A DNA stretch of 64,000 nt. Origin: Leucoraja ocellata (taxonomy: Eukaryota). The stretch covers positions 9,052,001 to 9,116,000 of the forward strand of contig JAWMAR010000013.1 of assembly GCA_036785375.1 (NCBI GenBank). Reading direction: 5' to 3'. Shown piece by piece: positions 4,332 to 63,285 of the stretch. The notes below the pieces were generated by a model. The model was not told where the DNA came from. It saw only the letters and a list, made by a program, of their open reading frames with translations, and did not search any database. Each line of letters opens with the position of its first letter. The stretch's first letter is position 1. The position numbers and the translations under genes were made by a program.

Positions 4332-4560
4332 GAAACAGGAAACTGCAGATGCTGGTTAATACCAAAGATAGTGCTGCATTAACTCAGTGGGTCTGGCAGC
4401 ATCTCTGGAGAATAAGGATGGATGACGTTTCGGGCAGAGTATGAAGAAGAATCCTGACCCAAAACGTCACACATCCTTTTACTCCAGAGATGCTGCCTGA
4501 CCTGCTGAGTTACTCCAGCACTATCTTTGGTATTAACCAGCATCTGCAGTTTCCTGTTTC
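4332..4560. mobile_element. Penelope-derived inverted-repeat (hairpin) short element
   Basis: Arms gaaacaggaaactgcagatgctggttaataccaaagatagtgctg... and ...cagcactatctttggtattaaccagcatctgcagtttcctgtttc are reverse complements. The arm sequence is the terminal repeat seen after GIY-YIG remnants elsewhere in the window. Confidence 0.8.
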
Positions 4561-4721
4561 TACGAAAAGGCAAAGCAACTGGTGCAAAAGATCAATGATT
4601 AAGAGTAAGAAAACAAAATACGAAACAATAGAGGAGAAAATTAAGTGCAAAGGCTGAAATGAGACAGTGCAGCATTTCGGAAGAGAAACAAGACCTCACG
4701 AATTAACAGACAATTGAGGTA

Positions 4722-6360
4722 CAGTGCCCTCCATAATGTTTGGAACAAAGACTCATCATTTATTTATATTTATTGCACAATTTGAGATTTGTAATAGAAA
4801 AAAATAAAAATTGGTTAAAGTGCACATTGTCAGATTAAAGGTCATTTTTATATATTTTGGTTTCACCATGTAGAAATTACAGCAGCGTTTATACATAGTC
4901 CCCCTCATTTCAGGGCACCATAATGTTTGGGACACAGCAATGGCATGTAAACAAAAGTAATCATGTTTAATATTTTGTTGCATATCCTTTGCATGCAGTG
5001 ACTGCTTGAAGTCTACGATTTTTTTCCTTTAATATAGAGAGAATTCTTCTGTCATCAGCTGTGGAGGTCTTCCTTGGCCTGCCAGTCCCTTTGCGATTAG
5101 TAAGCTCACCAGTGCACTCTTTCTTCTTTATCTTATGCTTGTTTTGGTGGTTAGTCCCCTTCAGTTTTCTCTTCAGCATATAAAAGGCATGCTCAATTGG
5201 GTTCAGATCAGGTGATTGACTTGGCCACTCAAGAATTGACCATTTTTTAGCTATGAAAAACTCCTTTGCTGATTTAGCAGTATGTTTGGGATCATTGTCT
5301 TACTGTAGAATTAACCTCCGGCCAATGAGTTTTGAGGCATTTGTTTGAACTTGAGCAATGAGGATGCGCCTATACACTTCACAATTCATTATGCTACTAC
5401 CATCAGCAATTGTATCATCAATGAGGATAAGTGAGCCAGTACTTCAGCAGCCATACATGCCCAGGCCATAACACCCCCACCACCGTGTTTCACAGATGAT
5501 CTTGGGCAGTTGCTTCTCTCCTCCATATTTTGCTCTTGCCATCACTCTGATATGTTAATCTTTGTCTCATCTGTCCACAAGACCTTTCTCGAGAACTGTG
5601 GTTGCTCTTCTAAGTACTTCTTGGCAAACTGTAACCTGGCCATCCTATTTTTGCGGCTAACCAGTGGTTTGCATCTTGCAAGTGTAGCCTCTGTATTTCT
5701 GTTCATGAAGTCTTCTGCGGACAGTGGTCATTGACAAATCCACACCTGACTCCTGAAGAGTGTTTCTGATCTGTCGGGCAGGTGTTTGGTGATTTTTCTT
5801 TATTATAGAGAGAATTCTTCTGTCATCAGCTGTGGAGGTCTTCCTTGGCCTGCCAGTCCCTTTGTGATTAATAAGCTCACCAGTGCTCTCTCTCTTCTTA
5901 ATGATGTTCCAAACAGTTGAATTTGGTAAGCCTAAGGTTTGGCTAATATCTCGAACAGTTTTAATTCTTGTTTCTCAGTCACATAATGGCTTATTTGACT
6001 TTCATTGGCACAACTTTGGTCCTCATGTTGATAAACAGCAATAAAAGTTTCCAAAGGTGATGGAAAGACTAGGTGCTGAGAGCTCTCTTATACCTGCATT
6101 AGGGAGGCATTTAAACACACCTGAACAATTACAAACACCTATGAAGCCATGTGTCCCAAATGTTATGGTGCCCTGAAATGGGGGGACTATGTATAAACAT
6201 AGCTGTAATTTCTACAAGTTATAAAAAAATACCTTAATAAAATCTGACAATGTGCACTTTAACCACATATGATTTTTTCTATTAAAAATCTCAAATTGTG
6301 GAGTACAGAGGCAAATAAATAAATGATGGGTCTTTGTCCCAAACATTATGGGGGGCAGTG
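4722..6360 (-). mobile_element. Tc1-family DNA transposon, near full length, transposase pseudogene
   Basis: TA|cagtgccctccataatgttt...aaacattatggggggcagtg|TA with ~215 bp TIRs containing inner and outer direct repeats (ccataatgtttgg). Minus-strand transposase from ATG near 6026 shows GTGRPRKT, VLWTDETK, DNDPKH and WPSQSPDLNPIEH, with stops and frameshifts. Confidence 0.95.
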
Positions 6361-6384
6361 TAAATCAGATTAAAACAAAAGTCC

Positions 6385-6648: not shown

Positions 6649-6867
6649 AGATGGTCACAGATGGAGGCAGCGTAATATGACAATCAATTCCGCATTTTTA
6701 GATAAAATCCTGTACTATTGAACCACAATTGTAACATTCTCAATTCAAATATCAGTGAGTGTATCTTTGCCATTTAAATATCAGTGAACATATTTGTGTG
6801 TAAAATTATACAAGTCTCACCAAATACATTTCTTGCCCAATTGCCCTATGCAACTACAAAAAATGTT

Positions 6868-7040
6868 GACACAAAATGCTGGAGTAACTCGGCGTGATAG
6901 GCAGTATTTCCAGGGACAGGAGGGTTTCGACCCGAAACATCACCCATTCCTTCTCTCCAGAGATGCTGTCTGTCCCGCTGAGTTACTCCAGCATTTTGTG
7001 TCTATCTTCGGTTTAAACCAGCATCTGCTGTTCCTTCCGA
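6868..7040. mobile_element. Penelope-derived hairpin short element
   Basis: gacacaaaatgctggagtaactc... paired with ...gagttactccagcattttgtgtc; central gggtttcgacccgaaac. Confidence 0.8.
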
Positions 7041-8449
7041 AACAGAAAGTTTTTGCTGTGATGGTTAGTAATTTGATAAATTATTTTTTTGGAAAAAAAT
7101 GATACCATAACCAATGAAACAAGATAATTACTCTGATTCACTTCCACGTCCTTAAAACTCGTCATCTCTTTCAGAATAAATATTTGTGTAAAAAAATAAA
7201 TGAACCTGCACATTCACGACTAATTTGCTTTAAATTTCCTGCAGTTGGCTTGTTTATCTCCAATGTTTAAAGGTCTTTTAGTTCCTTGGTTCTGGTTTAA
7301 GGAATATAAATACAAAGCAAAATATAGAGCAAAACCAATACTAACTCCATTTAGGAATTAATCTAGCTGTATTATTTTTCATTTTGCGAAAAGAACTTGC
7401 CCTTCCAGCTACAAATATTGGTGGCGTGTATTCATGGATGTAATTTAACAGCACAAATAAGGCCTGTTTATTCACTGTATCTCCAGGCACAAAGAATGGA
7501 GGATCATCTAACGTTCATGAACCAGCACATCTACACTATTGAATTTCAATGAATCCACTTTAGGCACTGACTGATATAACTATGGCTCTATCACATCAGG
7601 AGGGACCTGATGCAAGTTACTTCAGATGTTGCTGAAAATCTAATTTTCATATGCTTTAATTTTAAACTTCTTTACTTTCTCTTTCGGGCATGAGGATAGC
7701 GGTTACTTCCAATGGTAACATTTCATTTTGATTGGGATAATCTGGTGTTCACAAGCGAGATAATGAAGATCTGTTCACTCTGAACTTAGCCTCAAGTAAA
7801 TTCAGCAATTTTTAATTAAAAAGTGTTTTCCAAACTTTTTCTCCAGTTCCAATTAATCACAGAGATCGCATATGCCTCCAATCTGTAACATCAAGTACCA
7901 ACACTGGTAAATATTTCCGATAACAGCGGTAATTTCATAAATCTAGACCAAATTGGAAATGATGTGTTACACAATGGTTTTTAATGTACCATGGAAAGAG
8001 AAGAGGATTAAAGTGAACTCCCTGTAGGTTTACGAATAGTTTCAAAGCAATACTCTTTAAATTGAAGGGTTCTTCTTTTCTACACTTTTCTAAATTAATG
8101 ACATAGAGAAGATAGAATCTGTTGTTTATCAAAAGCAGATGTTTTATGTTACAACTGATGATATAAAAGGATTATTCATGTTGGGAGTGAAGATAGTTGA
8201 TTAGCCAGTTCATAACTATGGAAAATGCAGATCATGTCTCCAAAAAAGCTGGCTTCCAATCAAGACCGTATGTATTCATAATGTAACAATTCCTCATAAA
8301 TCTACGAGCTGCCTGACATTAAAATAAACTCTTAGCGCACTTATTCGAATACAAGATGCCATTAAATCCAGTCATAAAAGCTCAATGCAAATATATCCAA
8401 AGCTGGGCAAGAATCCAATGGAACACTGCACAAACAGGGCAAAACATTC

Positions 8450-8974: not shown

Positions 8975-9087
8975 ATTTTAACTCCCTTATGCAAGACAGG
9001 TCAGTAATATAACATATTTTTCATAATAATCATTCAAATTCCTCGAGTATTTGAAACACAGTTGAACTGAAGTATCTGATTTTAGAT

Positions 9088-9398
9088 CTGTAGGAAAGAA
9101 ATGCAGATGCTGGTTTAAAACAAAGAGACACAAAAAGCTGGAGTAACTCAGCGGGTCAGGAAGTGATGTTTCGAGTCGTGCCCCTTCTTCAGAATGAGAG
9201 TCAGGGGAAAGGGAAATTAGAGATATAGAACGAATGGAATATATGCAAAAAGTAACGATGATCAATGAAAGGCTATATCTCTCATTTCCCTTTCCCCTGA
9301 CCCTCAGTCTGAATATGGATCTCAATCCGAAACAGCACCTACTCCTTTTCTCCAGAGATGCTGTCTGACCCGCTGAGTTACCCCTGATTTTTGTGTCA
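9088..9398. mobile_element. Penelope-derived hairpin element with longer internal inversion
   Basis: Inverted arms include gagtcaggggaaagggaaa / tttccctttcccctgaccctc. Flanked by atctgattttagat (9074-9087) and atctggtttcagat (9399-9412). Confidence 0.8.
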
Positions 9399-9935
9399 AT
9401 CTGGTTTCAGATGCTCAATAAAGCCAATTCCCACCACTCATCAAAACTGAATACTCGTGCTGCACCACCACCTCCACCCATAGTCATCCCCATCACTACA
9501 CAAACCCTCAGCCATAGTTTTATCGAGAAGCTCACCTTCCACAACACCAGTTTCATCAGCATGCGTAAAGTACAACTTTTCAGTAAACTATTTTCACTTC
9601 GCAATTTAATTCCAAGCATTGTGACAAAGAAACTAAAATAATGTTTCTTCTGCCTAGAATCGATGAATCTTTGCAATTCCCCATTCTGGAGGGCTGTGCA
9701 GGCTGTCATGGAAGACATCAATAGGTTTCTGGACACTGAGGGAATCAAAGGATACGGGGATTGGGTAGGACAACGGATTCCAGTAAGAACTTTACCCATA
9801 ATCTACCCATTACCCACCATCAATTGCTGGCCAGACTCTCAGGTCACAATGGCCTTCTCCTGCTTCTGGTTCTTACACTTGAGAAACCTTCAAATGTCAC
9901 TTCAAAACCATTGTCCACATAAATGTCCTTCCTTA

Positions 9936-11809: not shown

Positions 11810-12187
11810 GAATAGATGGTTCAGCTGTTATCAGGCAACCAAACCATCCTTTCAACAACTAGAGAATGGTACTATGCTGCTATATATCTCACTGGAGACC
11901 CTTGGACTACCTTTAATAGGACTTAGACAAAAGTGCTGGAGAAACTCAGCGGGTGCGGCAGCATCTATGGAGCGAAGGAAATAGGCTACGTTTCGGGCCA
12001 AAACCCTTCTTTAATAGGACTTTACTAGACTTTATCTTGCACAAAATATTATTCCTTTTATTGTGTATCTTTACACAGTGGATGGCTCAATTGTCATGTA
12101 TAGTCTTTCCGCTGACTGGCTAGCATGCAACAAAAGGTTTTCCCAGTACCTCCTTACACAAGTGACAATAAACTAAACTGAACTAAA
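11810..12187 (+). mobile_element. Rex1/Babar-like LINE 3' end, interrupted by a Penelope-derived insert at 11925..12008
   Basis: cagctgttatcaggcaac...gtgacaataaactaaactgaactaaa tail, homologous to 39250-39485. The insert is flanked by ctttaataggactt on both sides. Confidence 0.7.
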
Positions 12188-12422
12188 GCTGCTTTGTCCC
12201 CAATCAGAAACTACAGACCAATCAATAGCACTAGTTGGGTTCTTGTGGTCACTGACTGCTCCTCAGCAAGAAGTTCTCCAATACTCCATGCTGCACAGGA
12301 GCCTCAGTCCCCCTCACTTTCCTTTGCTCTTCCACAATTCAACTGAGTACACATTTCCCCTTTCCCCACCACAGCTCCACTTCGAAATCCTTTATTTTCT
12401 CTCTGACTACTCAGTCCTTCAG

Positions 12423-12640
12423 TAAAACACAAAGTGCTGGAGGAACTCAGCTGGCCAAGCAGCATCTGTGGAGGGAACAGACAGGCAGCATTTCGGGTCA
12501 GGGCCCTTCTTCAGACCCAAGAGGAGTCCCGGCCTGAAACATCGTCAGTTGATTCCCTCCACAGATGCTGCCTGGCACGTTGCGTTCCTCCAGCACTTTA
12601 CATTCTACTCAAAATTCTAGCATCTGCCGTCTCGAGTCTC
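12423..12640. mobile_element. Penelope-derived hairpin element, older subfamily
   Basis: aaagtgctggaggaactcagc...gcagcatctgtggagggaa paired with ttccctccacagatgctgcc...gttcctccagcacttt. Confidence 0.75.
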
Positions 12641-14724: not shown

Positions 14725-14727
<3 letters not shown>

Positions 14728-16449: not shown

Positions 16450-17660
16450 TATATTAGCAAATGGTTAGGAGTTCCATGGTGTCTTTGTATGTGGCTTTAT
16501 ATGGGAAAGGTATTCTCCATTTACATTGTCTAGCCTAACAGAGGAGTTTAGGTGTGCTAAGGTGAGGTTAGAGTTGCAATTATCAGGGAGTAATGATACC
16601 TTAGTTAGAAATCTGGTGCTAAGTGTAAACAGAAGGAGGAAGTTGAACTCAAGGCAGGCAGTAGAAGAAGCAAGAGCAGCTCAGAGGCAAGGGAAAGGAG
16701 GCTTGGGGCTCAGCACAGTGAAACCAGTGTGGAGTAAGGCAGGTCCAACAGAGAGGAGGAAATTGATTGTAGAGCAGGTACGTTGTCAGTGAGCCTGCCT
16801 GTTATGGTCAGTTAGTCAGTGGATAGTGTATTTAATAGAACTGCCGGTGCCTTGGGAGAACTAAGTGGATGAGACTTATGAAAGGAAAAGGCTTAGATAT
16901 GTAGAGTTGGCAGCAGAAGTTCAGCAGCGAGGATGGAGAGCAAGAGTACGTCCTGCAGAGGTGAGTTGTAGAGGTTTCATAGAGATCGACCACCTCGCTA
17001 TTTGGAGTGCCAGGAATTCGTGGACAGAGTTGGTGTCAGACTATAAGCAAATGTCAGAGGCAGCAGAGCAAGGCAGTAGGTGGATTTGATGGAGAAAAAA
17101 GTGTCAAGAAGGAACTGCAGATGCTGGAAAATCGAAGGTAGACAAAAATGCCGGAGGAACTCAGCGGGTGCAGCAGCATCTATGGAGCGAAGGAAATGGG
17201 CAACGTTTCTGGCCGAAGAAGGGTTTTGGCCCAAAACGTTGCCTATTTCCTTCACTCCATCGATGCAGCCGCACCCGCTGAGTTCCTCCAGCATTTTTGT
17301 CTACCTAAGAAATAGTGTCAGTTGGGGGCAGAAAGGAAACGTATGACATTCAGTATGTGCATTTCTTTGTAATTGTAGTCTGTGCTAGTGTTAAGTCTTA
17401 TGCAAGGGCGATATCTGTGGTGTTACAAGTTTAATGTTGGGATAGGATTAGTGGAAGATAGGATGCAGGTGTTTAGAATGTGTTAGAGTGAGCTGATTGA
17501 CTGCAGCTTCCTTTATTTAGTAGATACAGTACTGGTATTGAGGGGGTTGGTCTGGGACATCAGAACCAACTGTTGAGCCTGTCCGAGGTGTTGAGGGTCT
17601 AACTCAACAAAACACCAATGAAGAGAGGTGCTCACTTGATAACCCCAATGATACACTTGC
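16450..17660 (+). mobile_element. HERO/R2-like non-LTR retrotransposon 3' fragment with restriction-like endonuclease
   Basis: Peptides ISKWLGVP, SSLTEEFRCAKVRL, GKGGLGL, ERRKLIVEQV and LIELPVPWE..DETYERKRLRYVELAAEVQQRGWRARVRPAEVSCRGFI. Internally deleted and interrupted by a hairpin element. Confidence 0.8.
17107..17305. mobile_element. Penelope-derived hairpin element nested in HERO-like fragment
   Basis: ggtagacaaaaatgccggaggaactcagcgggtgc / gcacccgctgagttcctccagcatttttgtctacc arms; near-duplication aa(a/t)agtgtca on both sides. Confidence 0.85.
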
Positions 17661-18871: not shown

Positions 18872-19050
18872 AAATTGCATATCTTTCATTCATTGTTCTT
18901 TATCTCTCCACATCACCATGTATATCTTTCGTTTCCCTTATCCCTAACCAGTCTGAAGAAGGGTCTGGACCTGAAACGTCACCCTCTCCTCTCCAGAGAA
19001 GCTGCCTGTCCCACTGAGTTACTCCAGCTTTTTGTGTCTATCTTCGGTTA
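18872..19050 (+). mobile_element. Penelope terminal-repeat fragment with intact minimal hammerhead core (18953..18980)
   Basis: CTGAAGA-A-GGGTC-TG-GACCT-GAAA-CGTC followed by the family arm ...gagttactccagctttttgtgtc. Confidence 0.8.
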
Positions 19051-21064
19051 AAAAATATTGAGAGAAGTTTGAGAGAACTTGTACAATTTTTATTCATAAA
19101 ATGGGATTATGAGTATCACTTTGAACTGCAGCATTTAGTACTGTTTGTGCTTTGCAATTTAAAGGGAAGTCAACATTCATCAACTGCGCTGTGGGCCTGG
19201 AGTTACATCGAAGGCAAACAATATACTTTCTTAAAGGAGATAAGAACAAGTGGCTAATTTCATCATTGATAACATGTGCTTGTTTTTTTTTTGTTTTTTA
19301 ATCATAGCACCAGTAACTGAATGTAAAGGGCCCATCTTGATGGTAACCAAATGTGCTTTAATCTCAAAGTCTCTCGACTTTGTTCAATGTTTGAATTAAG
19401 CAACAAACTAAGTCCATATTCTGGTATCTTTAAACTGTGTGCTGTTTGGTCACAAGTGCAACAATAAAAATTATCATTGTCTGAAAAACATTTTGGTTTA
19501 TTTTCAGATGGCCACATTTATTTGTACATATAACAACTTCCTACAGAATAAATTTCAGAGAAAATTCATTGTGGCAGTATGAATAACCAATAAATTGGTA
19601 ATGAGAATTTTAACCGAAAAATAAAAGTTGTTTCAAAGTAACAATCTTTACAAAACATTTCTAGGATGTCAAGGATTATTAAGCAATTAAATCACTGCTC
19701 TTTAAACAACTGTTATGAAATAAAACAAAAATCTCTTTCATAAAGGAAGTAAAACTGGCACTAAACAATGAAGCAATGTTCAGTGCAGCTTTGGTCAGGG
19801 TCAAATGGGCCAACATATCCTCCAGTACGAAACATATGCTCAAGGAAAATAAGTAAACTTTGAAATCATTGAACTCGATCATCACAGATCAATTAAACAT
19901 ATTGATTGCTAACCTCTGAGCCTTTAGTCAATAGGATTGAATGTCATTTAGTTTGTACAGGTTATTCGGAGAGGTGAACTTAGTATTTCACCCTGCAGTG
20001 AAGTGTTCATTTTAAGCTCATGAATTCAAATCCTTAAACTGAAGAACACCTTATGATAGCTCTGTGGATGAATTGATTGGGACATATAGACTACTATTTC
20101 ACCACATTTTGCACACTTCAACATTTTTTTTCCTTTCAGCTGAAGGACACCCAAGTGAGATATGAGCTTTTCAATGACACAGGACACACTTGGTGTTGTG
20201 AAAAACTGCTGGTCTCACTCTTTTCTTTGCCAGGACTGATGAAAATTATCACGAGGCTGACTGGCTGACTTGATTTTCTTTTTGAATGCTTTGAAAAAAC
20301 TTTTTTTTTTTTTTAAAAAGCTACATCAACAACAATCCTTAACAAGTTAATAGTCAGTTCATCATCTGAAATAATAAGCCTCAAAGCTGACCAACAAGTT
20401 TTGTTCTTTTCTCAGTCCTATATTGATAAATTCGCATCTGGATATTTCTTTGTAGCTTGAAAAGTTCAATAAAAACAAAAAGGTACTTTTTCGGGTTTCT
20501 TAGCAATATATTTAAGAACCTAGATGGAACTTATTCAATTAACAAAAGACAGTGATTATTCATTCTGTGTAACAAAGCCAAGAAAATGTAGGAATGCCAG
20601 ATACAGCTAAGCTCTTTTTGAAACTTTACATAAATGCATTTAACTTGGCAAACAGCTGCTTTTGGGTCTTTATCTGCTAGAATAACATGGCAATATTTAG
20701 ATTTAGATAAATGTATTATATAATAGGATATATTTTCATTTTATCTGACTGGAATTGCAGAATGTAGTTTATTCAGTAAGTGATGTTATCTGCTTACTGC
20801 AACCATCATAGATATTCAGATAGCCTTACAATTCTAGACAGAGTAACAAGTGAAATAAAAATGAATTAAAATTTATGTGGATTGAAATGTACAGGTTAAA
20901 TAATGTTTCTCTGGTCATAGCTGAGAGCCCTCTAATGCAAGAGAGCTGTTTAAGCATTACCCTGGCACAATGATCTAATCTCTCCCTTGCTAGGGAGATA
21001 ATGTGACCCCCAGAATGCATAAAGTCACCCAAAAAGCGAACAAAAGCAGGTCTAAAAAACATAG

Positions 21065-22265: not shown

Positions 22266-22390
22266 GTCTGAAGAAGGGTCCCGACCTAAAACGTCACCTA
22301 TCCATGTTCTCCAGAGGTGCTACCTGACCCGCTAAGTTACTCCAGCATTTTGGGTCTTTTTTTGGTAAACCAGCATCTGCAGTTTCTCTT
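22266..22390 (+). mobile_element. Penelope terminal-repeat fragment (single arm)
   Basis: tctgaagaagggtcccgacctaaaacgtcacc...cagcatctgcagtttc; GAAA of the hammerhead core mutated. Confidence 0.8.
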
Positions 22391-22614: not shown

Positions 22615-23712
22615 TTAGGACCACCCGGTTGCCAGCCATTTCAATTCCGTCCCCATTCCCACATCAACCTGTTAGTCCTTGGCTTCTTCCACTGTCAGAG
22701 CGAGACCAACTGCAAACTCAAGGAACAGCACCTCATATTCAACCTTTTGTACACTGCAATGAGACAGCATGAGCATTCAATTTCTAATTGGGTACTGATT
22801 GGGGATGATCAGCCATGATCACATTGAATGGCGGTGCTGGCTCGAAGGGCCGAATGGCCTATTGCTGCACCTATTGTCTATTGTCTAATTTTAGGTATCC
22901 TGCTTTCCTCGCTCTCTATCCACCTGGATCTTTCCATGAATACCATCCTTACCTCCATGCCCTTACAGTCCCATCGCTTTCAGTGCCGCTACTGTTCTGA
23001 TCGACCCACTCCACCACACCGTATTTGGTCCCAACTGAACATTCTCACATCAGATTCGATCTGCAGACCCTGATCTCTGTTGTTTTCGTCTCCATCTTTC
23101 TTGCCTCTCTCCGGTTCCATCCATTAATCCAGCCTTCATCTGGACCCACTTATCGCATGCTAGTTCCTGCCCCAATCTTTCACCTCTTTACTCTGGCCAT
23201 CTCCCCTCTCATTCTTTGAATCTGAAATGGTGTCAAGTTGGGAAAAGAGGAAGTACAATGAGATCTGGGTGTCCTTGTTCATTAGTCACTGAAAGTAAGC
23301 ATGCAGGTACAGCAGGCAGTGAAGAAAGCTAATGGCATGTTGGCCTTCATATCAAGAATAGTTCAGTATAGGAGCAAAGAGGTCCTTCTGCAGTTGCACA
23401 GGGCCCTGGTGAGACCACACTTGGAGTATTGTGTGCCGTTTTGGTCTCCGGATTTGAGGAAGGATATTCTTGCTATTGAGGGAGTGCAGCGTAGGTTCAC
23501 AAGGATAATTCCCGGGATAGCGGGACATTCATATGTTGATAGAATGGAGCGGCTGAGCCGAATCCCCTATTGTCTATTGTCTATAAATCAGAGGAAGGAT
23601 CTCAACCCAAAACCTCGATAGTGCACTTCCCCCCACAGATGCTGCCTGACCCACGGAGTACCTTCAGCAGTTTTTTTTACTCCAGATTGCAGCAACTGCA
23701 ATTTTTTGTCAA
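22615..23712 (+). mobile_element. Penelope 3' portion (GIY-YIG C-terminus plus terminal repeat) with two nested CR1 pieces (22790..22885 and 23219..23585)
   Basis: HSHINLLVLGFFHCQSETNCKLKEQHLIF is typical of the Penelope endonuclease tail. The short CR1 tail is flanked by tctaatt. The second CR1 piece (RALVRPHLEYCV) jumps directly to its ctattgt tail. Confidence 0.8.
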
Positions 23713-27616: not shown

Positions 27617-27770
27617 AAGACAAGATGCTGGAGTAACTTTTCGGGTCAGGACCCTTCTCAAACTAAAACGTCATCTATCCATGTTCTCCAGGGATGCCAT
27701 GTGACCTGCTGAGTTGCTCCAGCACGTTGTGTCTTATTTTGTAAACCAGCATTTGCAGTTCCTTGTTTCT
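27617..27770. mobile_element. Penelope-derived hairpin element
   Basis: gatgctggagtaact...ttcgggtcaggacccttc...gagttgctccagcac...cagcatttgcagttcc. Confidence 0.75.
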
Positions 27771-29867: not shown

Positions 29868-30455
29868 ACCGAATTGTTTAAATATAAACAGAATTAAAGT
29901 GTCATTTCAAAATATTTTACTCCTTGGAGGGAGGCTGGTTATAAATGTTGCAACTTTTCATTAACCGACAAAAAGCCTGCAGAGGTAACAATGAACTTGG
30001 GGATAAAACTTGGCATCGTGTTTAGCCCGGGCATTGTAGGCCGAAGGGCCTGTTTCTGTACTCACTTATATTCTCTGTTAAAACCGAAATCTAGCAAATC
30101 CCAAGGATCTAGCAAGGACCTTGACACCTCCCTCACTTCGTGTAGGAAAGAACTGCAGATACTGGCTTAAATTGAAGGTAGACACAAAATGCTGGAGTTA
30201 CTCGGGTCAAGACCCTTCTTCAGACAGATTCAGGGTCTTGACCTGAAAAGTCACCTATTCCTTCTCTCCACAAGATGCTGCCTGTCCCGCTGAGTGACTT
30301 CAGCATTGTGTCTACCTCCCTCACTTTTTTGTTTATCTACTTATGAACTGAACTGTTTAAACATAAATAGAATAAATTGTCATTTCAAAATATTTTACTC
30401 ATTGGAGGGAGGCTGGTTACAAATGTTGCAACTTTCATTAACCATCACAAAAGCC
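29868..30455. repeat. ~110-bp direct duplication (about 29868..29977 and 30347..30455)
   Basis: tgtcatttcaaaatattttactc(c/a)ttggagggaggctggtta(t/c)aaatgttgcaacttt occurs in both copies. Confidence 0.9.
30139..30313. mobile_element. Penelope-derived hairpin element with 13-bp TSD
   Basis: acctccctcactt at 30126-30138 and 30314-30326. Confidence 0.85.
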
Positions 30456-39249: not shown

Positions 39250-40205
39250 CAGGCAAGGGAAACAGAAGTGTAAAACACACACCTTCAGATTCAGGAACAG
39301 TTTCTTTCCAGCTGTTATCAGGCAACTGAACCATTCTTTCAACAACCAGAGAGCAGGCCTGAGCTACTATCTACATCATTGGAGATCCTCAAACTATGTT
39401 TAATCGGACTTTACTAGACTTTATCTTGCATTAAATGTCATTCCTTTTATCATGTACCGGTGGATTGACTGCAATCATGCATTGTTCAGGAAATAACTGC
39501 AGATGCTGGTTTAAATCCAAGTAGCCACAAAATGCTGGAGTAATTCAGCGGGACAGGCAGCATCTCTGGAGAGAAGGAATGGGCGAAGTTTCAGGTCTAG
39601 ACCCTTGTTCAGACCGATGTCAGGGGAGTAGCGGGACAAAGATCGAATGTAGTCAGGGACAGTAAGACTGGTGGGAGAACTGGGAAGGGGGGAGGGGATG
39701 GCGAGAGATGCAAAGCAAGGGAAGTTAGAGAAGGTCAATGTTCATACCACTGAGGTGTAAACTATCTAAGTGAAATATGAGGTGCTGTTCCTCCAATTTG
39801 CGCTGGGGCCTCACTCTGAGAATGGAGGAGGCCCGACAGAAAGGTCAGATTGGGAATGGGAGGGGGAGTTGAAGTGCTGAGCAACCCGGTTGCTCTCATT
39901 CCCAATCTGACCTTTCTGTCCTCGGTTTTATGATGTAGCTTTAAGGCAAGTTTAAAGGAGACGTGCGGGGAAATTGTTTTATACAGAGGGGGGTGAGTGC
40001 TTGGAACACAATGCCGGGGTTGGTGATTGAGGTAGATACGATAGTGGCATTTAAGAGACTTTTGGATAGGCACATGGATATGCAGGGAATGGAAGGATAT
40101 GGTTTTATGTGCAAGCAGATAAGAGTTGGTCATGGCACCATGTTCAGCACAGACATTGTGGGCCAAAGGGCCAGTTCTTGTGCAGTACCGTTCTATATTC
40201 TATAT
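39250..40205. mobile_element. Nested cluster: Rex-like tail (+, 39250..39485), Penelope 3' end (-, 39487..39925, with a short terminal inversion), CR1 tail (+, 39935..40205)
   Basis: RFRNSFFPAVIRQLN; GLLHSQSEA..KLEEQHLIF on the minus strand followed by the terminal repeat; aaggtcagattgggaatg / cattcccaatctgacctt inversion; CR1 GKFKGDVRGNCFIQRGVSAWN. Confidence 0.8.
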
Positions 40206-45761: not shown

Positions 45762-46696
45762 CTGTAATGAAGGAACAGTGAGCATTAGAAAAAGTCAAAT
45801 CGGCAATGGTCAATTGGCGGCTGTGGTCTAGATTCTGGCCGCACTAACCTCCAGTTTATGAACAAAAGCCTGATTGGGCAAGAGAGTGCATTGGGGGGGG
45901 GAACGGACACACACACACACCAAAAAGTGGTTTGCTTCCAAAAAAAGGCAATAATTTTTGCAAAAAATAAAGCTTCAAATAAATGTAACAGCGCAAGAGC
46001 TTACATTTTAACACATTAGCTTTCCACTCATGTTTGTAAGCAGAACAGAGACTTTGGCAAAAAAATTGTGAAAACCCACCATGCCGTGGGTAGTTTTGCC
46101 AACATATCCGCTGGCGTTATTCTGATTCTCGTCTAAGCAAACAGCATCATGGTTCACAGGCTTGAAATGAAGGAACACTCAATTGCTAATAAGAAAATGC
46201 AATGTTCACCAGAGCACACATTTTTAAAACCTAATCTATTTAACCATGGACAAGTGCTTCCAAAGCAGTCCAGACTAATATTTAATGGTTAGTGGGAATC
46301 TGATTTTAAAGACGATTAAACATTTACATTCTTTTGGCTCTCGAGTGCAGCAGGCAACCAGAACACGAGAGACTTACAGAAGCATGCTGACAGATGAGAC
46401 AGACTAAAGCCAGAAGACAGCTTCAGAATGCTGTGGCCGGTGGTACAAAGAGACAGAAGCTGCAAGCTGAACAGGGAACTTGCAGTTAAGTTAAGGCACA
46501 GGGAATACAATTGCTCTCATAATTAGCGTCTTATTCCCAATGCACAAAGGAACATTCAAAGCAAAATGCAGCATCTGAAATAAGGAATGGTACAAATATA
46601 CAGAAGATATTACATATTATTTTCCATCAGGAATGTATAAATCATTTTAAATCGTACAGATGCATGCCGAACAAACCAAGCCATCAACAGCATATG

Positions 46697-46844
46697 GTAT
46701 GCAAAAATGCTGGAGAAACTCAGCGGGTGCAGCAGCATCTATGGAGCGAAGGAAATAGGTGACGTTTCGGGCCGAAACCCTTCTTCAGACTGATGGAGGG
46801 TGGGGGGGGGGGGGGGAGAAGGAAGGAAAAAGGGAGGAGGAAAG
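46697..46844 (-). mobile_element. Penelope terminal-repeat insert with 15-bp TSD and intact hammerhead core (46761..46788)
   Basis: catcaacagcatatg at 46682-46696 and 46845-46859. Minus strand reads CTGAAGA-A-GGGTT-TC-GGCCC-GAAA-CGTC. Confidence 0.9.
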
Positions 46845-47977
46845 CATCAACAGCATATGTTCACTGGATCTGCTTGAACTTCTGGTGTCTATTAATTTGT
46901 TTGGTTTTCTATCAACTATGAACAAAAATTCAGGCAGAGCGAATCTTCTTATGTACTTCCTCAGTTTCCATTTTTCACCATGTTCTCTCCCTCCAACCCC
47001 ATCCTGAGCAATGCGTAACAATATGCATTTTAAAAATTTAGGTATTTGATGAAGGAATATCTGATCCATCTCAACTGGCTAGCTGGAAAATTAGCAAAGT
47101 GCTAGGGTTTTGCTACTGGGCAAGGCCAAGACAATTAACAAGCATCACTGTGGTATACGAACACATTTTCGATCCAAAATATCCATCAACAACTAACAGC
47201 ATTATTTCAGCATCATCAATTATTTTCTCCATGTGCATGGTCTATCTTCATGTGAATGAAATACTGACACGTCTATATTTAACATAATTGGTATTTTTCC
47301 ACATCTTTATTACAATTTATAAATTAACTCCAATATAAATTAAAACGAAAATACTAGTGCGGAATCAAATTATTTATCCAATTTATTTTCTGCATTTAGA
47401 AGCAGCACAAACAAAATTATTTTTTAGATAACCATTAATCTTCACCAATGCTCCAGAGACTAAAAATACATTTATCCAAGCTGTGCATTAAGGGTAGGTG
47501 GCAACTCAAGGTCAAGGTAAGGCCCGATCATTGAACCTCCGTCAACAGAGTCATTTGATCCATCACGTCAGGAAATGAAAATACTGAGTTATCGTGATCA
47601 TTACGACATTCCCTGATCAGAGGGCATAATTTCAAGTATGAAGGTACCCTGAGAACTGATGAAAGTAGAACAACATTCTAACAGTTGGACAAAATGTAGC
47701 CTCTCAAAACTGAAATTTTCATCAATCTCGTTCAGGGGAACTTGCATTCCATCGCAATCAAGTGCACAGGAGTTCAACGTGTAAAGCCGCTACAGCAGCA
47801 TGATTTATTACACTAAAATATCCTTTGGAGTTATATTTCCAGTAAAACGGACTTCCATAATTTTGTAAAGTTCATTCATTCATATTGTTCAGATGAATGT
47901 CCATGGGTCTCCATGAGGAATCTACTGCAGGTCTAACCCCAACAACCACATCAATGCATCTACATCTGAAACATATC

Positions 47978-48350: not shown

Positions 48351-49296
48351 CACGGTGTAGTTACTCACTAATGGGCAAGTGGGAGGCAGATAACAAATAT
48401 TCAAAAGTTATTTTAACAATTGCAAAATGTCTCCTTTAAAATTTCAGAAGTCTCTCACACCTTTGTACCACTGTTTAGCATTCTGGAAATCGTCTGTGTT
48501 GATAGTTATCAATCTGAATGGTGATCAATACTACGCGACGATAAAATAATACTTTTACAGTAATTCAAAGCTGGATTTCACAAAATATATTGCCACGAGG
48601 GAGCGAGGATAATGTTTGAATTGGTTGGTTTTTATCTCTACTCTTCCAAGTATCAAATCCCTGCATGACCAAGCGGCATGATGGCATGGCATTTTACAAC
48701 AAAGCTGCACAATTCTTTAAGCTTATAATTTAGGTTTCAAATCATGTTTATCATATTAATATTTTGACTTGGTTCTATCCAACAATATTGAATTCAGTGA
48801 TGTATAAAATTGACAAAATTATAATATGTAATAACTACTGGGCCAGAAAATTAAGATGATGTACATTATCTTATTTGAATGTAGTAACTCAGTTGAAAAA
48901 TGTCTACATGCAAGTATTATACATCTACACTCTTTATAAAGCCTGGAAAATGGGACAAAAACTAGGAAAATTCATAAATATGTATGGCTGTCGTTTTGTC
49001 CAATCACATCTTGAATAAAATCCCATTTTAATTTCTCTTCATTTTCCAGTTTCTCTTCCATTTTTATTTATAAACATGTTTGTAAGATATTATGTGAACT
49101 GTTGTTGCTCACCAACTGCCTTTTCACAAGGTGCTCATTTCTTGATCTTTTGCTGTTACCTTTCCCTTTTGCCCATCTATGCCTGATCATGAAAAAGGAA
49201 GCCTTCTCAAAACATACAAGTCCAATCCCAGGTGTTTCTCCACAGCCACTGTTCATCTCCAGCACCTGGATGACTGAGGGCACTCCCAATTAACAA

Positions 49297-50665
49297 TAGA
49301 TAGACACAAAATGCTTGGGTAACTCAACAGGTCAGTCAGCATCTCTGGAGAAAAGAATAGGTGACGTTTCGGGTCGGATCCTTTCTTCAGTCTGAGTTAC
49401 CCCAGCATTTTGTGCCTATCTTCGGTAAAAAAACAGCATCTGCAGTCCCTTACTACCTGATTAACTATGACCATATGACCATTCCCCTCGCACCATGAAT
49501 GAATTGAACTAATTCTTGCATAGGACAATTTTCCATCAACACCACTCGGTTCCGACAGATAAAATACATCACCCTGGATGATTTTTAAGTGACCTGGCTT
49601 TAGGTTTTTTTTTTAAGGATTTTCAACACTCCTACCAACTCAACCAACTGGAGACCGAATTCACCAGTTTCCACACACTAACTATCAGCTTCCTCAAGTT
49701 TTGATACTTCCAGCTTGAATCTCACCACCATGTGCACCTTCCTCCTCTTTACTGACATTCCTTCATCAACATACTGCTTCACTCATCAATACCATTTTCC
49801 TTTCCCCACAGCATCTTCTTCCACAACTCTAATGATACATCATCTTTGCTCATTTCCATCCAAGGTCAAAGGCATTTTCAACATTAGAGTGAGTTACTTG
49901 CGCTTCTGATTTGTATACGAAAGAACTGCAGATGCTGGAAAAATCGAAGGTAGCCAAAAATGCTGGAGAAACACAGCGGGTGTGGCAGCATCAATGGAGC
50001 GAAGGAATAGGTGACGTTTTGGGTCAAGACCCGAAACGTCACCTATTCCTTCCCTCAATAGATGCTGCCTCACCCGCTGAGTTTCTCCAGCATTTTTGGC
50101 TAGCTGTGCTTCTGATTTAGTATGTTCTATTCGTTGTTCACAATGTAGCCTCTGATAATTGGAAAGGCGAATGAAGAAAGCAAAAGCAGCTCAAAATTAC
50201 CCTGAAACAAGGAGCTGCATATGCTGGTTAATAAAAAAAAAAAGATGAAGTGCTGGAGTAACTCAGCGGATTACAGCATCTTCAGCATCTCCGTAGAACA
50301 TGGATAGGTGACTCTTCGTTTAAAAATAGCTCTTCAGTTTGCAAGCCTAACCCTGGATGCTTGTCACTTCAGCCTTCTGTCCAACAAGCTCCAGTGCCAA
50401 GCGGTGATCATGGTTGCCCTTATGCATACCACTGGAACAAACTTTTATTTCTTTAGGATCACATTATTCTCTTCGGTCCTGTACATTAATACTTTGTCAT
50501 TTAATCTCCAACATTACATCCTATTAGACATTTCACTTTGTGGCCTGAGATTTGTTCCTTTAACTTCACAAAAGTTAACTGACTGGGCATATTGACCTCT
50601 TCCCCTTACACAGATGCTGCCTGACCTGCTAAACACTTCCTGCAATTTTTGTTCTTACTTCCAGA
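49297..50665. mobile_element. Cluster of Penelope-derived pieces (hairpins 49297..49455 and 49913..50104; arms near 50207..50310 and 50600..50665; decayed endonuclease-region remnants between)
   Basis: Family arms; tg(c/t)gcttctgattt duplication at 49899-49912 and 50105-50118; minus-strand hammerhead core at 49363..49390. Confidence 0.75.
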
Positions 50666-55554: not shown

Positions 55555-56502
55555 ATCACATAGGATTTACACCCACCAGTCTCCGCATCCAACACATCTT
55601 TCTCCCACATTTCCGCCATCCTCAACGTGATCCCACTTCCTGTCACATCTTCCCAACACTGCCCCTTTAAGCCTACCACAGGGACCACTCCCTCCACAAC
55701 TCCCTGGTTCACTCATCCCATCCAAACCATCCCCTCCCCGGGTACTTCCTCTGCAACACCTGTTTCTATACCTCCTCCCTCACCTCCATCCAGGTACTCC
55801 GACAGTCCTTCCAGGCGAGTCAAAGATTCGCATACACCTCCGCTAAGCTCATCTACTACATTTGGTGCTCACAAATGTGACCTCCCTTACATCAGCATGG
55901 TGACTACATAGACTATGTGACTGTTTTGCCGAACACGTGCGCTCGGTCCACCAAGGCTTACTGGATCTCTGTTACTCATCATTTCAACTCCCCTTACCAT
56001 TTCCATTCTGACCTCTGTCCGGGGCCTCCTCCGTTCCTGGAGTGAGACTATATGCAAACTGATGGAACCGCACCTCATATTCTGCTCAGCTACCTAACTC
56101 CCAACGGTATGAACATTGAATTCTTCAATTTTAAGTAACTAACTTGCAAGCAACCACTCTTCCCTCCCCCCTTCCCTGTGCCCCACCTGGATGCACAACC
56201 ATTTATTTATTTTCCCTTTCATCTATTCCTTCCTCTGGCTTCACAGTTCATGTCTTTTCTATCCTTACCTCTTTATCTCACAGCTTTGTCTTTTCATATC
56301 TGGTCTTTGTCCAACCATCTGACTGTTTTCATCTATATCCTCCTGTCACTTGCTAGACTTTGTGCTGCCCCCATTCTCTTTCAGCTTTCTCACCTCTTCT
56401 ACAATCAGTCTGAAGAAGGGTCCCGACCTGAAATGGCACCAATCCATGTTCTCCAGAGATGCTGCCTCACCCGCTGTGTTACTCTACCACTTTGTGTCTT
56501 TT
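55555..56502 (+). mobile_element. Penelope-like element 3' portion: GIY-YIG endonuclease remnant plus terminal repeat
   Basis: QSFQ..QRF..TS.KLIYYIWCS..CDLPYI...FAEHVRSV...HFNSP...CKLMEPHLIF...NGMNIEF, then cagtctgaagaagggtcccgacctgaaa and the family arm. Confidence 0.88.
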
Positions 56503-59625: not shown

Positions 59626-60949
59626 TACCTATTGCTCGGATTTGACGATTGTATTTATGTATAGCATATCTGATCAGTTAGGTTAGCATGCAAAACAAAG
59701 TTTTTCACTGTACCTCTGCACACGTGACAATAGATACGATGAAGATTTATAAATTGAGGTACTGCTGAATGAGGAGTCAATGCAGACCAGCTAGAGTGAC
59801 TGGTGAACAGGAGGGCAATGATTCAGGTGGACGCAAGACTACAGAAGGTGCTGTCAGCTGAAGAACAGCTAGGAACTTGTACATCCAATTCTCTATCATT
59901 GAAGTACAATGACTGTAATCATTCACAAGATCAAGATGATTTGGACCATTTGTACGTTTTGGGGACAATCTCACTGCAAATGTAAATGTTGAGAGAACAA
60001 ATTCAACCACGAGCCTTATTGTTACATATTATTTCTGTCTTTGGATGGACCTGATTCAATCAACTGAAACCACTGATTCTTCTCCATTGTCAGAGAATTT
60101 AGTTAAGAGGAAGAAATCTTTTCAAACACACCACAAAATGAGCAAGAATAATGTGGAGCTGACAGGGTGAGGTAGCTTGATGATCAGAAACACGAATAAG
60201 GACTGCGGTTTTTTTCAAAAGGAGAAACAGTGAAAAGGGTCATCGCAGGAACGACTGTATAGAAAACAGCATTTTTATACATTACAGATGTTAAACAACA
60301 ACGCTTTGCAAATCTAATTTTGATAATTTGTGACAGAATGCAAGGAAAACAAAAGGAATCATGTCACAGCAGACTATAATCAATAGCTTGGCGTATTTCA
60401 GCTATCACGAGCTGCAAAACCATGGGAAATTTTAAAATTCCTTATTCCATTTGGAAGTGTTATAAGACATGTCAGAAGACAATTAAATAAATTACTTTAC
60501 ATTAACAACATAAGAAATATCAACATCCAAGGACACACTTTCTCATTTTGAAGTCTTGTCCTGAAGCCACATATCAAAAGAGATAGAATTAATATCAGAG
60601 AATGAACTATTTTAACAATAACAGTGCTGTCTTTACTACCAATAAGCAATGTCAACTAGCCCGGTTACAATTCTGAGAAATGCATCTTTCCCATCACATT
60701 ATTCTACACGACTGACTGTGCCCAAAGGATATTATCAGCAGGAGAAACCAAAACAAAATTAGGCCTCATTCTCATCTCACCAAGCTCCTTCCCACATAAT
60801 GCATTTGCCTTTTACAATACTGGTAGGAATGACCATCACACTTGTGTATGTGAAGACATAGTATCATTTTCACGGTTGTCACCCTCCCTTGTGACATTTT
60901 GCACTACGAGCATGGCAGATACAAACAACCCAAAATCAGATCCAGCACA

Positions 60950-62640
60950 TCAAAACCAGGCAGTTTTGTACCTCAGTGCCCCAACCCCATATATCCCACT
61001 TCTTTCTGTTATCCAAGATCCACAAATTAGACTATCCTGGTAGCCACACAATTCTTCCTACTCTTGCCCCACCAAACTGGTCTCTTCATTCCTCAGCTCC
61101 AACCTGTCTTCCCTTATCCAGTTCTTTCCTACCTACATCTGGGACACTTTGCATGCCTGCCACCTTTTTGGCAATTGCCTTCAAAACCTTATCATCATTC
61201 TAGATGTCCACTTTTTACACACCTCCATCCCCCATGAGGAAGATGCCAAACCCTTCCACTTCTTTCTGCAACAAAGGTCCAACCAGATCTCCTCCACCAT
61301 CATACTCTTTTTTCACGCAGAGTGGTGAATCTCTGGAACTCTCTGCCACAGAGGGTAGTTGAGGCCAGTTCATTGGCTATATTTAAGAGGGAGTTAGATG
61401 TGGCCCTTGTGGCTAAGGGGATCAGGGGGTATGGAGAGAAGGCAGGTACGGGATACTGAGTTGGATGATCAGCCATGATCATATTGAATGGTGGTGCAGG
61501 CTCGAAGGGCCGAATGGCCTACTCCTGCACCTAATTTCTATGTTTCTTCTGCCTGGCAGAACTTGTTCTCAATTACTTGTCTTTTGATTTCTCTCACTTC
61601 TTACACATCCAGGCAGTCATATCGGCCATCACTCCCTCTGCCTTTTTGTTGGCTGTGTGCCAAATCTGATACAACTCCCCAACTTTCTTCAATACATTGG
61701 ACTGTGTTGGTACAGGACTCGGCAATTTGATCACCTTTGCTAACAACTTGCACCCCCTATTCAAATTCAAAAGTAATCTCCTTTGTCCCATAACATTCGC
61801 GTTGCTGAATCAGGCCACGATGCAACCTTTCAATATGCTCTCTATCCTACACCTGTAGAGGTTCACGAGTATTCATCGATGTTCCAAATCTCCTCAATCT
61901 TCTTTGGAAGTAGGGGTGATGATGAGCTTTTCCTTATGATTGCATCAATGTGCTGGGCCGGGGATGTAAGCAGAAGCCTTCACGTGGCGCATCCCGGGCA
62001 ATGCTGATGACAGAAACTGTACCACAGTAACTGACTGAAGTAGCCAATTCTGCAACCACCGTCAACCGTCACTGACCGGCCAGAAAGACGTGATATGGAA
62101 GATGGCCGGACATGAGGAAGAAGAATGTGCTGGGCCCAGGATAGATCTTAAGAGATATGCATGCCCATAAATTGTTGATTCTCTCCACTGCCAAACCATT
62201 GGTGAAGACAGTTCAAGCCTTACTCTTCTAAAATCATCAATCAGCTTCTTGGTCTTGCTGACGCTTAGTACAAGGTTGCTGTTACGGCATGATCCAATTC
62301 GATTATCAATCTCCCTCCAATACTCTGACTTATCATTACCCAGAATCAACCAGAATTGATCCATCGACGGTGGTGTCGCCTCCATTACCAATTCATTTGG
62401 AACGTTCCTTTTCTGGATGTGGCATCTCCATCTCAAGAAACAAACTTACTAATGACATTTAGTATAAACCCAACTACTCCCACATCTACCTCGACTACAC
62501 CTCTTCCCACCTTGTCTTCAAGGATATCATCCTTTTCTTCCAGTTTCTCCATTTTCAATCACGATGTTGCTGGATTCGTCACGTTCCTCCAGACGTTGCT
62601 TTTTTTTCTCCACATTCCAGCATCGGCTGTTCCTTCCTTC
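60950..62640 (+). mobile_element. Penelope reverse-transcriptase remnants with nested CR1 (61307..61547, +) and Rex1/Babar (about 61840..62380, -) fragments
   Basis: PQP..HFFLLSKIHK.DYPG and PFLD...KPT.SH.YLDYTSSH (Penelope RT); DKSEYWREI...CRNSNLVLSVSKTKKLIDDFRR (Rex1); young CR1 tail. Confidence 0.78.
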
Positions 62641-62986
62641 ATTCCCAGGCGGATATTGTGGCAATTAGTACCAAAACTCCCTTCACCACAATCTGCAAAT
62701 GGCAAAGAGGATCTGCCATTTAAGCGCAGCCTGAAGCTGCCCACCCAGGACCAGATGCAAGGTAGACAAAAATATTATGCCCTAGACAGAGCTAAGAAAT
62801 GTAACAATCCACAGATTAAATCAAAGATCCGGTCACAAATGGCGAGAGGTGATGAAAAACATGACAAATGTCACCCAATGAGAAACCAAATATGATAAAT
62901 GCTACACAATGACGACGCATGTGTGAGAAAGCCAAAATGAAGTGTATGCCATCATATTCAGGCAAGAATGTCAAGTAGATAATGGT

Positions 62987-63285
62987 GGGTCGGCACAGTG
63001 TTGCAGACGTAGAGTTGCTACTTTGCAACGCCAGAGACCCGGGTTCCATCCTGACTACGGGTTCTGTCTGTACGGAGTTTGTATGTTCTTCATGTGACTG
63101 CGTGGGTTTTCTTGGGGTCTCTGGTTTCCTCCCACATTCCAAAGGCAAACAGGTTTGTAGGTTTGAAGAAGGGTTTCGACCCGAAACATTGCCTATTTCC
63201 TTCGCTCCATAGATGCTGCTTCACCCGCTGAGTTTCTCCTGCAATTTTGTCTACCTTCAGGTTTGTAGGTTAATTAGCTTATGTT
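62987..63285 (+). mobile_element. HE1-like SINE 5' half, interrupted by a Penelope arm (63164..63257) with 14-bp TSD
   Basis: tRNA head ggcacagtgttgcag..gtagagttgc...gacccgggttccatcc and V-domain; caggtttgtaggtt at 63150-63163 and 63258-63271. Confidence 0.88.

What the first reader, a model, noticed from the sequence alone, without database searches (positions are those of the whole stretch)
4332..63271. Abundant short Penelope-derived inserts with 13-15 bp target-site duplications behave as a mobile family
Seen: about 20 copies of one arm sequence, as single arms or tail-to-tail hairpins of roughly 85-310 bp. Clear flanking duplications: ctttaataggactt (11911/12009, 14 bp), acctccctcactt (30126/30314, 13 bp), catcaacagcatatg (46682/46845, 15 bp), caggtttgtaggtt (63150/63258, 14 bp), plus near-perfect ones at 9074/9399 and 49899/50105. 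The same arm terminates GIY-YIG remnants at 55555-56502, 22615-23712 and 39487-39925. Established: Penelope elements encode RT plus GIY-YIG endonuclease and often carry inverted terminal repeats. Inference: the narrow TSD size reflects a fixed endonuclease stagger. The copies are either extreme 5' truncations with inversion or a non-autonomous retro-MITE, and some inserted more recently than the HE1, Rex and HERO copies they interrupt.
Basis: partly seen in the sequence, partly recalled or inferred. Interest (0 to 1): 0.72.

Follow-up and report, generated by a model that had tools for sequence, protein, structure and literature searches.

The report
Twin-primed Penelope stubs with 14-base duplications
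These short repeats are end pieces of a very common Penelope-type jumping gene, each pasted in separately and often head to head between duplications of about 14 bases, a pattern likely made when the element cuts both DNA strands a fixed distance apart and copies its RNA from both cuts, rather than by a separate mini-element.

Summary
All six named duplications are at the stated places, and the window has 27 arms in 18 loci. The arm is the hammerhead-to-tail end of a Neptune-type Penelope-like element (RT plus GIY-YIG), with about 310 loci per Mb in 1.2 Mb sampled. The duplications are made on insertion: paralogous empty sites carry one copy.

Hairpins are head-to-head, not tail-to-tail; 98 of 117 pair one tailed and one tail-less end, the two known RT start sites. 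Their duplication lengths fit a fixed 14 bp plus chance extension, as do kilobase copies with coding sequence. Single arms vary more (10-17 bp). Most arms stop just before the hammerhead core, at an initiator-like motif. Recurrent junctions sit on palindromes and recur across subfamilies, which argues against a clonal retro-MITE.

Likely mechanism (inferred): two nicks 14 nt apart, priming from both, and run-off at the RNA's 5' end. Inversion, tail and short duplications are published. The near-fixed stagger departs from the stated 'variable' view, and I found no report of it. This scan noted the same pattern before, in other genomes and in another piece of this one.

The parts
4317..4577 (.). 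Head-to-head hairpin, both arms tailed; degenerate 14-bp flanking repeat (2 mismatches, weak)
   Evidence: score 8; null 5 of 300 reach 8
6859..7043 (.). Hairpin, short plus tailed arm, no duplication found
9074..9412 (.). Hairpin (tailed plus short arm) with UTR-like spacer; duplication 9074/9399, 12 of 14 match
11911..12022 (-). Single short arm, exact 14-bp duplication, inside a multicopy repeat whose empty paralogs have one copy
   Evidence: 24 of 29 spanning hits with no net indel
12422..12630 (.). Old hairpin, short plus tailed arm, junction class 9
17096..17320 (.). Hairpin, tailed plus short arm; 11-bp flanking repeat with 1 mismatch (weak)
18950..19052 (+). Single short arm, no duplication found close by
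22266..22389 (+). Single tailed arm
22624..23710 (+). Endonuclease C-terminal remnant plus tailed arm (23587-23710), interrupted by other repeats
27619..27767 (.). Degenerate hairpin
30126..30326 (.). Hairpin, tailed arm (with internal deletion) plus short arm; exact 13-bp duplication
36460..36521 (+). Degenerate short arm
39484..39885 (-). Endonuclease remnant, 3' UTR and tailed arm (39484-39615)
46682..46859 (-). Young single short arm with about 50 nt of 3' UTR; exact 15-bp duplication
49293..49456 (.). Hairpin, short arm plus partial tailed arm
49899..50118 (.). Young hairpin joined at hammerhead stem II (class 38); 14-bp duplication with 1 mismatch
50204..50337 (-). Single tailed arm, old
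55566..56502 (+). Linker and GIY-YIG remnant, 3' UTR and short arm (56407-56502)
61053..62640 (+). Penelope RT remnants (61053-61322, 62409-62567) and a weak arm hit (62561-62640)
63150..63271 (+). Single short arm, exact 14-bp duplication, inside a SINE-like repeat whose empty paralogs have one copy
   Evidence: 149 of 177 spanning hits with no net indel

Best explanation
The inserts are separately integrated end pieces of a Neptune-type Penelope-like retroelement, likely made when the element's protein nicks both target strands 14 bases apart and primes reverse transcription from both nicks at its two internal RNA start sites, with the copies likely running off at a fixed RNA front end just before the hammerhead core. 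Shown: element identity, duplication on insertion, the 14-bp mode in inverted inserts, the tailed-plus-short pairing, the 5' stop zone and the palindromic junctions. Inferred: a dimer makes both nicks together (14-nt 3' overhangs). One nick primes at the tail site and the other at the short site, on the same or a sister RNA. The two cDNA ends anneal through self-complementary stretches (the first seven bases or hammerhead stem II), giving a head-to-head hairpin. If only one nick primes, a single arm results with a less exact duplication. Short inserts would dominate because a transcript that starts at the pseudo-LTR initiator has only about 100-135 nt in front of these start sites; longer copies would come from read-through RNA. 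Hairpins would form anew at each insertion and not spread as a unit.
For: (1) The arm ends long RT plus GIY-YIG copies and heads the body in partial tandems. (2) 3' ends are bimodal at columns about 96-106 and 129-134, matching the two RT starts that bound the tail in PMC11167929. (3) Of 117 classifiable head-to-head pairs, 98 are tailed plus short; among young pairs with a duplication and two classifiable ends, 33 of 34. Chance gives at most half. (4) 36 of 98 such hairpins have a flanking repeat scoring 9 or more, against 0 of 196 controls. Lengths 14/15/16/17 occur 12/5/2/1 times among the 28 scoring 10 or more, against proportions 0.56/0.28/0.11/0.04 for a fixed 14 plus chance extension. 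Targeted young sets agree: 21 of 26 and 18 of 20 have a duplication, mode 14-15. (5) Eight inverted inserts of 0.5-2.4 kb have 13-21 bp duplications (three at 14); five of seven measured have the longer side beyond the UTR. In four of seven the short-ended side is much longer than the tailed side, which self-copying of one cDNA cannot give. (6) Empty paralogous sites: 17 of 72 inserts testable, 12 with no net indel, none with two copies. (7) Dyad hint: A three bases left of the duplication in 14 of 18 and T three bases right in 12 of 18 14-bp sites; 17 and 18 of 36 single arms. (8) 24 of 51 duplication-bounded single arms start at columns -1 to 8; only 46 of 303 arms reaching column 5 continue into the body. 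(9) Junction classes 9, 21 and 38 recur in 3-5 subfamily clusters, and class 45 almost only in the one subfamily that has that palindrome. The two arms share a subfamily in 62 of 90 hairpins, 20% expected.
Against: No nick or transcription start was observed directly. RNA reads gave no pile-up of molecule starts. The extra-G cap signature is weak: 13 of 31 and 12 of 26, p 0.13 and 0.04. In D. virilis the start lies upstream of an intron whose end maps to the hammerhead's front edge, not at that edge (PMC2377424, PMC4209133), so the stop zone may be a stall or a splice-related site. 62 of 98 hairpins have no confident duplication, and at score 8 or more 21 of 50 are 8-12 bp, probably by decay. 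Single arms are broad (10-17 bp, n=36). The left-side A did not replicate in the second targeted set (1 of 5), whose query included target bases. In that set 7 of 9 hairpins with one variant carry it in the tailed arm only, as a clonal hairpin would; the query carried that variant and it lies on several backgrounds, so I read it as ascertainment. Mirrored variants may also come from conversion between arms: the duplicate pair L286/L291 differs in this way. 7 of 15 long young pairs had no duplication. Body continuation is under-called (2 of 20 young 'abrupt' arms are body by eye).
Confidence: 0.68

Rival explanations
1. Same twin-primed insertion, but the fixed 5' stop is an RT stall or detachment point (hammerhead fold, the C-rich tract upstream, or a splice-acceptor-related RNA end) on long transcripts, not a transcription start.
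For: The stop zone follows a pyrimidine tract ending in CAG. In D. virilis the intron ends at the hammerhead's front edge (PMC4209133). Very short PLE inserts by plain 5' truncation are known (median 128 bp, PMC9977147). No RNA start was seen.
Against: The zone is about 10 nt wide and matches an initiator-like pattern (consensus recalled). Copies that pass it run on for hundreds of bases. No spliced junction was found among the copies in hand (0 hits). There is a slight G excess at the first untemplated base.
Confidence: 0.3
2. A non-autonomous retro-MITE or SINE-like family: some hairpins or solo arms act as masters and are copied as units by the Penelope protein.
For: 36 of 114 tight hairpins fall into four junction classes. 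Dozens of near-identical hairpins exist genome-wide. One arm-specific variant appears in 7 of 20 hairpins. Non-autonomous PLE derivatives are known (PMC8557442; bioRxiv 2026.07.22.740005).
Against: Both outer ends sit at RT start sites, whereas a unit copied from one end should have a ragged far end. No column differs in majority between left and right arms. Three of the four classes recur across subfamilies, and about two thirds of junctions lie outside the four classes. Long coding copies have the same anatomy.
Confidence: 0.13
3. Hairpins arise by fold-back self-priming of one cDNA (or of an antisense template) at a palindrome, with sequential second-strand cleavage.
For: Proposed for rotifer Penelopes with palindromic junctions (PMC3846280). 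Junctions here do sit on palindromes. There is a slight microhomology excess at the short end (mean 1.6 vs 0.44 nt, n=28, inflated by chance extension).
Against: It cannot give a tail on one arm together with a much longer body on the other (L055: 274 vs 2106 nt; L012: 643 vs 1422 nt). It does not explain why the second end falls at the short RT start site.
Confidence: 0.12

Closest known systems
Insertion architecture of endonuclease-bearing Penelope-like elements (PMC8557442, PMC3846280, PMC2377424; passages read)
   Same: 5' truncation, partial tandems forming pseudo-LTRs, an adjacent inverted copy (head-to-head), a 30-40 bp tail at one end, palindromic junctions, short target-site duplications.
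   Different: Published duplications are 8-10 bp in rotifer examples and are described as variable. Here inverted inserts centre on 14 bp, most inserts are arm-only, and their 5' ends pile up at one place.
Neptune/Nematis-type PLE (CX2-5CxxC linker; PMC8557442)
   Same: C-terminal GIY-YIG with two cysteines between GIY and YIG, a DKG motif, and a CX4CxxC linker in L053 and L052.
   Different: No phylogenetic tree against named references was run. No (TA)n target bias was seen in the 18 sites listed.
Poseidon of the green anole, PAc (PMC11167929; parts 1-2 of 4 read, supplements not)
   Same: Two internal RT starts bounding the tail, both strands cut and extended, predicted dimer, hammerhead at the pseudo-LTR, AT-rich targets.
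   Different: A different clade. In the parts read the paper gives no nick spacing, duplication length, tailed-plus-short pairing or 5' stop. In this family the ORF appears to start after the tail (read by eye), not in stem II.
[quoted passage not shown]
   Same: Core motif with the extra base after position 9, a G-C closing pair and a palindromic helix III; a few short tandem arrays of the arm exist.
   Different: The inserts are dispersed monomers or head-to-head pairs with their own duplications, not tandem arrays, and their ends do not map to the ribozyme cut site.
L1 twin priming (recalled)
   Same: Inversion produced by priming from both nicked strands.
   Different: In L1 the two parts do not overlap; here both arms repeat the same sequence and start at two fixed element sites.

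Membership tests
EN+ Penelope-like element | Single ORF with RT and C-terminal GIY-YIG endonuclease | tested here: met
   L053 (815 aa) and L052 (970 aa): RVT_1 E 5e-6 and 1e-6, GIY-YIG E 1e-3 and 1e-2, all just under Pfam's cut-offs; DKG, YIDD and YIGET motifs
EN+ Penelope-like element | Partial-tandem pseudo-LTR and inverted 5'-truncated copy | tested here: met
   Partial tandems L085-L088, L092; inverted L012, L055, L094
EN+ Penelope-like element | Optional 30-40 bp tail at one end | tested here: met
   Bimodal 3' ends about 33 columns apart; 98 of 117 pairs have it on one arm
Neptune/Nematis clade | CX2-5CxxC linker between RT and endonuclease | tested here: met
   CX4CxxC at residue 682 of the L053 ORF, also in L052; definition from PMC8557442
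Neptune clade | RT phylogeny with named Neptune references | not tested
   No named reference set was fetched
Penelope/Poseidon clade | Absence of the linker zinc finger | tested here: not met
   The linker is present
Minimal type I hammerhead | Core boxes, extra base after 9, stem II, palindromic 15.2-16.2 | tested here: met
   Core intact in 158 of 333 arms; 4-bp stem II with one-sided changes only; Rfam gave no hammerhead hit at E 1
Minimal type I hammerhead | Self-cleavage | not testable with these tools
   No pile-up of 5' ends at the predicted cut site, column 33
Non-autonomous MITE-like family | One clonal structure with a fixed junction and arm-specific variants | tested here: not met
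   Many junctions, classes shared across subfamilies, no left/right majority difference; one contrary signal under ascertainment
Non-LTR retrozyme | Head-to-tail tandem units, each with a hammerhead | tested here: not met
   Only 28 adjacent same-strand pairs among 679 arms, of mixed spacing
True target-site duplication | Empty site carries one copy | tested here: met
   12 of 17 testable inserts with no net indel, none with two copies; window inserts 11911 and 63150

The most novel reading that the evidence does not exclude
Penelope-like elements integrate by a concerted mechanism unlike sequential LINE priming. A dimer cuts both strands 14 nt apart with a symmetric preference (nick, two bases, T), primes one strand at the tail site and the other at the short site, and runs off at a capped start just before the hammerhead. 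Roughly a million stubs in this genome would then record each step, and they would explain the inverted-plus-tail structure that the field lists as unexplained.
Probability: 0.4. Interest if true: 0.66.

Novelty: new member of a known kind. Interest (0 to 1): 0.42.

Why it matters
How Penelope-like elements make their inverted and tailed insertions is stated as unresolved (PMC8557442), and the one in vitro system (PMC11167929, parts read) gives no nick spacing. These stubs give numbers that such a system can test directly: 14-nt spacing, one start site per strand, junctions set by palindromes, and a fixed 5' stop. For annotation, about 5% of the sampled DNA is this arm; its hairpins drew weak microRNA-family matches and could be taken for MITEs or precursors. 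The element type and overall anatomy are not new.

Tried and rejected
Orthologous empty sites: contigs of two coded organisms laid on window 46300-50500 run into the 46682, 49293 and 49899 inserts, and no empty allele was among the joints shown (15 shown, 1591 not). The 19-kb duplicate of the window also carries all its arm inserts. RNA: no RNA holder on record was listed; three raw-read runs and one contig set gave no place where many molecules begin, and no canonical splice joint among the 15 shown, so this is uninformative, because most reads come from dispersed copies. Exact-match duplication search was too sensitive to decay and was replaced by mismatch-tolerant scoring. A 5-kb upstream search for single arms had too high a background (7-13% of controls) and was not used. 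Hammerhead cleavage as the source of the 5' ends was rejected (no peak at column 33). A spliced-RNA origin was not supported (0 junctions). One genome search with a young arm returned nothing because its words are too common. The window remnants could not be scanned with Pfam, as they contain stops; tblastn was used. A DNA-transposon MITE was rejected: unequal, ragged ends, 14-bp duplications and continuity with RT copies. Which side of a long inverted insert is longer was not constant (short end longer in 4, tailed in 2, equal in 1 of 7).
Full report
Observation. All six named duplications lie at the stated coordinates, four exact and two with 2 and 1 mismatches. A profile of the arm gives 32 hits in the window (27 at 25 bits or more, in 18 loci) and none in 364 kb of reversed sequence. 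The three endonuclease remnants are confirmed, and two RT remnants were added. The window is G000:C13:9052001-9116000 of a 3.44-Gb assembly; its repeats resemble those of cartilaginous fishes (recalled). In twelve 100-kb blocks that I chose arbitrarily from large contigs there are 624 arms in 375 loci, 5% of the bases, which extrapolates roughly to a million loci.

What the arm is. Long copies carry an RT plus C-terminal GIY-YIG ORF with a CX4CxxC linker, which marks Neptune and Nematis and is absent from Poseidon (PMC8557442). In partial tandems such as L086 the arm follows the 3' UTR and continues into the body, so it is the front of the transcription unit and the end of each insert. It opens with a minimal hammerhead core as described in PMC4209133, intact in 158 of 333 arms; Rfam does not detect it. 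The 3' ends fall into a short class and a tailed class about 33 nt apart, which matches the two RT start sites of the anole element (PMC11167929). Columns below count from the start of the arm profile; column 5 is the first base of the hammerhead core.

Duplications. Among 98 tailed-plus-short hairpins, 36 have a flanking repeat scoring 9 or more, against 0 of 196 controls; 62 have none at that level. Among the 28 scoring 10 or more, lengths are 10 (3), 11, 12, 13, 14 (12), 15 (5), 16 (2), 17, 20 and 21. A fixed 14 with chance extension predicts 0.56, 0.28, 0.11 and 0.04 for 14-17, which fits. Young pairs from all loci: 36 of 53 have a duplication, 33 of the 36 are 13 bp or longer. Two targeted sets gave 21 of 26 and 18 of 20; they include two and three duplicate pairs and overlap in part. 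Eight of 15 young pairs longer than 400 bp have duplications of 13-21 bp. Single arms are broader: 10-17 bp in 36. Removing an insert and one copy restores an unbroken paralogous repeat in 12 of 17 testable cases out of 72; the other five are off by 1-3 bases, and none needs two copies. For window inserts 11911 and 63150, 24 of 29 and 149 of 177 spanning hits show no net indel. PMC8557442 states that variable second-strand cleavage makes PLE duplications variable, and rotifer examples are 8-10 bp (PMC3846280).

Target preference. In 18 sites of exactly 14 bp, A lies three bases left in 14 and T three bases right in 12, a dyad pattern. The other 20 sites give 10 and 12, and 36 single arms give 17 and 18, though their flanks are generally rich in A on the left and T on the right. 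The second targeted set gave 1 and 4 of 5. I treat this as suggestive.

Hairpins. Head-to-head pairs number 149, against 35 tail-to-tail and 80 direct; 98 of 117 classifiable pairs join one tailed and one short end. Of 114 tight junctions, 36 fall into four classes that sit on self-complementary words; three recur in 3-5 subfamily clusters, and the fourth almost only in the subfamily that has the word. The arms of one hairpin share a subfamily in 62 of 90 cases (20% expected) and share derived bases more than random partners do (31% vs 11%; 16 vs 3.0; 8 vs 0.2). No column differs in majority between sides. Against this, one variant is on the tailed side only in 7 of 9 carriers; the query bore it and it lies on several backgrounds, so ascertainment is likely. 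Conversion between arms could also mirror variants. In long inverted inserts the short-ended side can be eight times longer than the tailed side, which needs two primings on RNA.

The 5' stop. Of 51 duplication-bounded single arms (258 tested; 15 of 516 controls pass), 24 start at columns -1 to 8. Of 303 arms reaching column 5, 46 continue into the body, 83 turn into an inverted arm and 174 stop; a second count gave 40 body-like of 171. The zone matches an initiator-like pattern (recalled) and is also a possible splice acceptor. It is not the hammerhead cut site. The cap-G test, a lead from earlier notes, is weak, and RNA reads were uninformative. The run-off step is therefore the least secure.

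Comparison and novelty. The element is a member of a known class, and inversion, tail, palindromic junctions, short duplications and very short inserts are all in print. Nine searches found no report of a fixed 14-bp duplication, twin priming or a fixed 5' stop for PLEs; the library lacks most subscription papers, and Dfam and Repbase were not available. What I saw of each paper: PMC11167929 parts 1-2 of 4; PMC8557442 the introduction and passages; bioRxiv 10.64898/2026.07.22.740005 part 1 of 5 and passages; PMC3846280, PMC4209133, PMC2377424, PMC8969392 and PMC9977147 passages. I read no supplements; those of PMC11167929 (cut sites, genomic ends) may bear on nick spacing. Eight earlier notes of this scan describe the same stubs, seven in other genomes and one in this genome; they are not independent support.

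Verdict. A real, abundant set of Penelope insertion products, not a separate mobile family. The value lies in the mechanistic numbers. Interest 0.42; new member of a known kind.

Noticed in passing
window 44848-64000: Segmental duplication about 103 kb downstream (G000:C13, about 9199.7-9218.8 kb), 332 mismatches in 19033 aligned bases.
   Followed up: yes
window 61307-61544: A 239-bp repeat piece is absent from the duplicate; it looks like the 3' end of a CR1-type LINE (name recalled), inserted after the duplication or lost from the other copy.
   Followed up: partly
window 21750-21811 and 61949-62054: Two sub-threshold matches to the CPEB3 (HDV-like) ribozyme model, 29.9 and 26.7 bits against a cut-off of 35.
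   Followed up: no
L297 and window 63150: An independent hairpin insertion lies at the same position of the same SINE-like repeat as the window's single arm, with essentially the same duplicated word.
   Followed up: partly
L059:231-442 and 7942-8242; G000:C10 block (L121-L130): Short tandem arrays of 62-66 nt units made of part of the arm, retrozyme-like.
   Followed up: no
L051:4916-8152: A LINE inserted in frame in a Penelope ORF gives a 1079-aa open frame with two RT domains; the Penelope sequence resumes at 8262.
   Followed up: no
L072-L077, L089: Seven loci share 1-1.5 kb of unrelated upstream sequence, by eye retroelement-like, joined to a truncated Penelope at 97-99% identity; the junction has been amplified.
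   Followed up: no
L059:3400-4050: A 27-bp tandem repeat of variable copy number lies inside the N-terminal part of the Penelope ORF region.
   Followed up: no
L286 and L291: Duplicate copies of one hairpin differ at a base that makes the two arms of L291 match, possibly conversion between arms.
   Followed up: partly
window 14715-14812 and 21065-21276: An (AT)n microsatellite, and a 212-base run of N.
   Followed up: no
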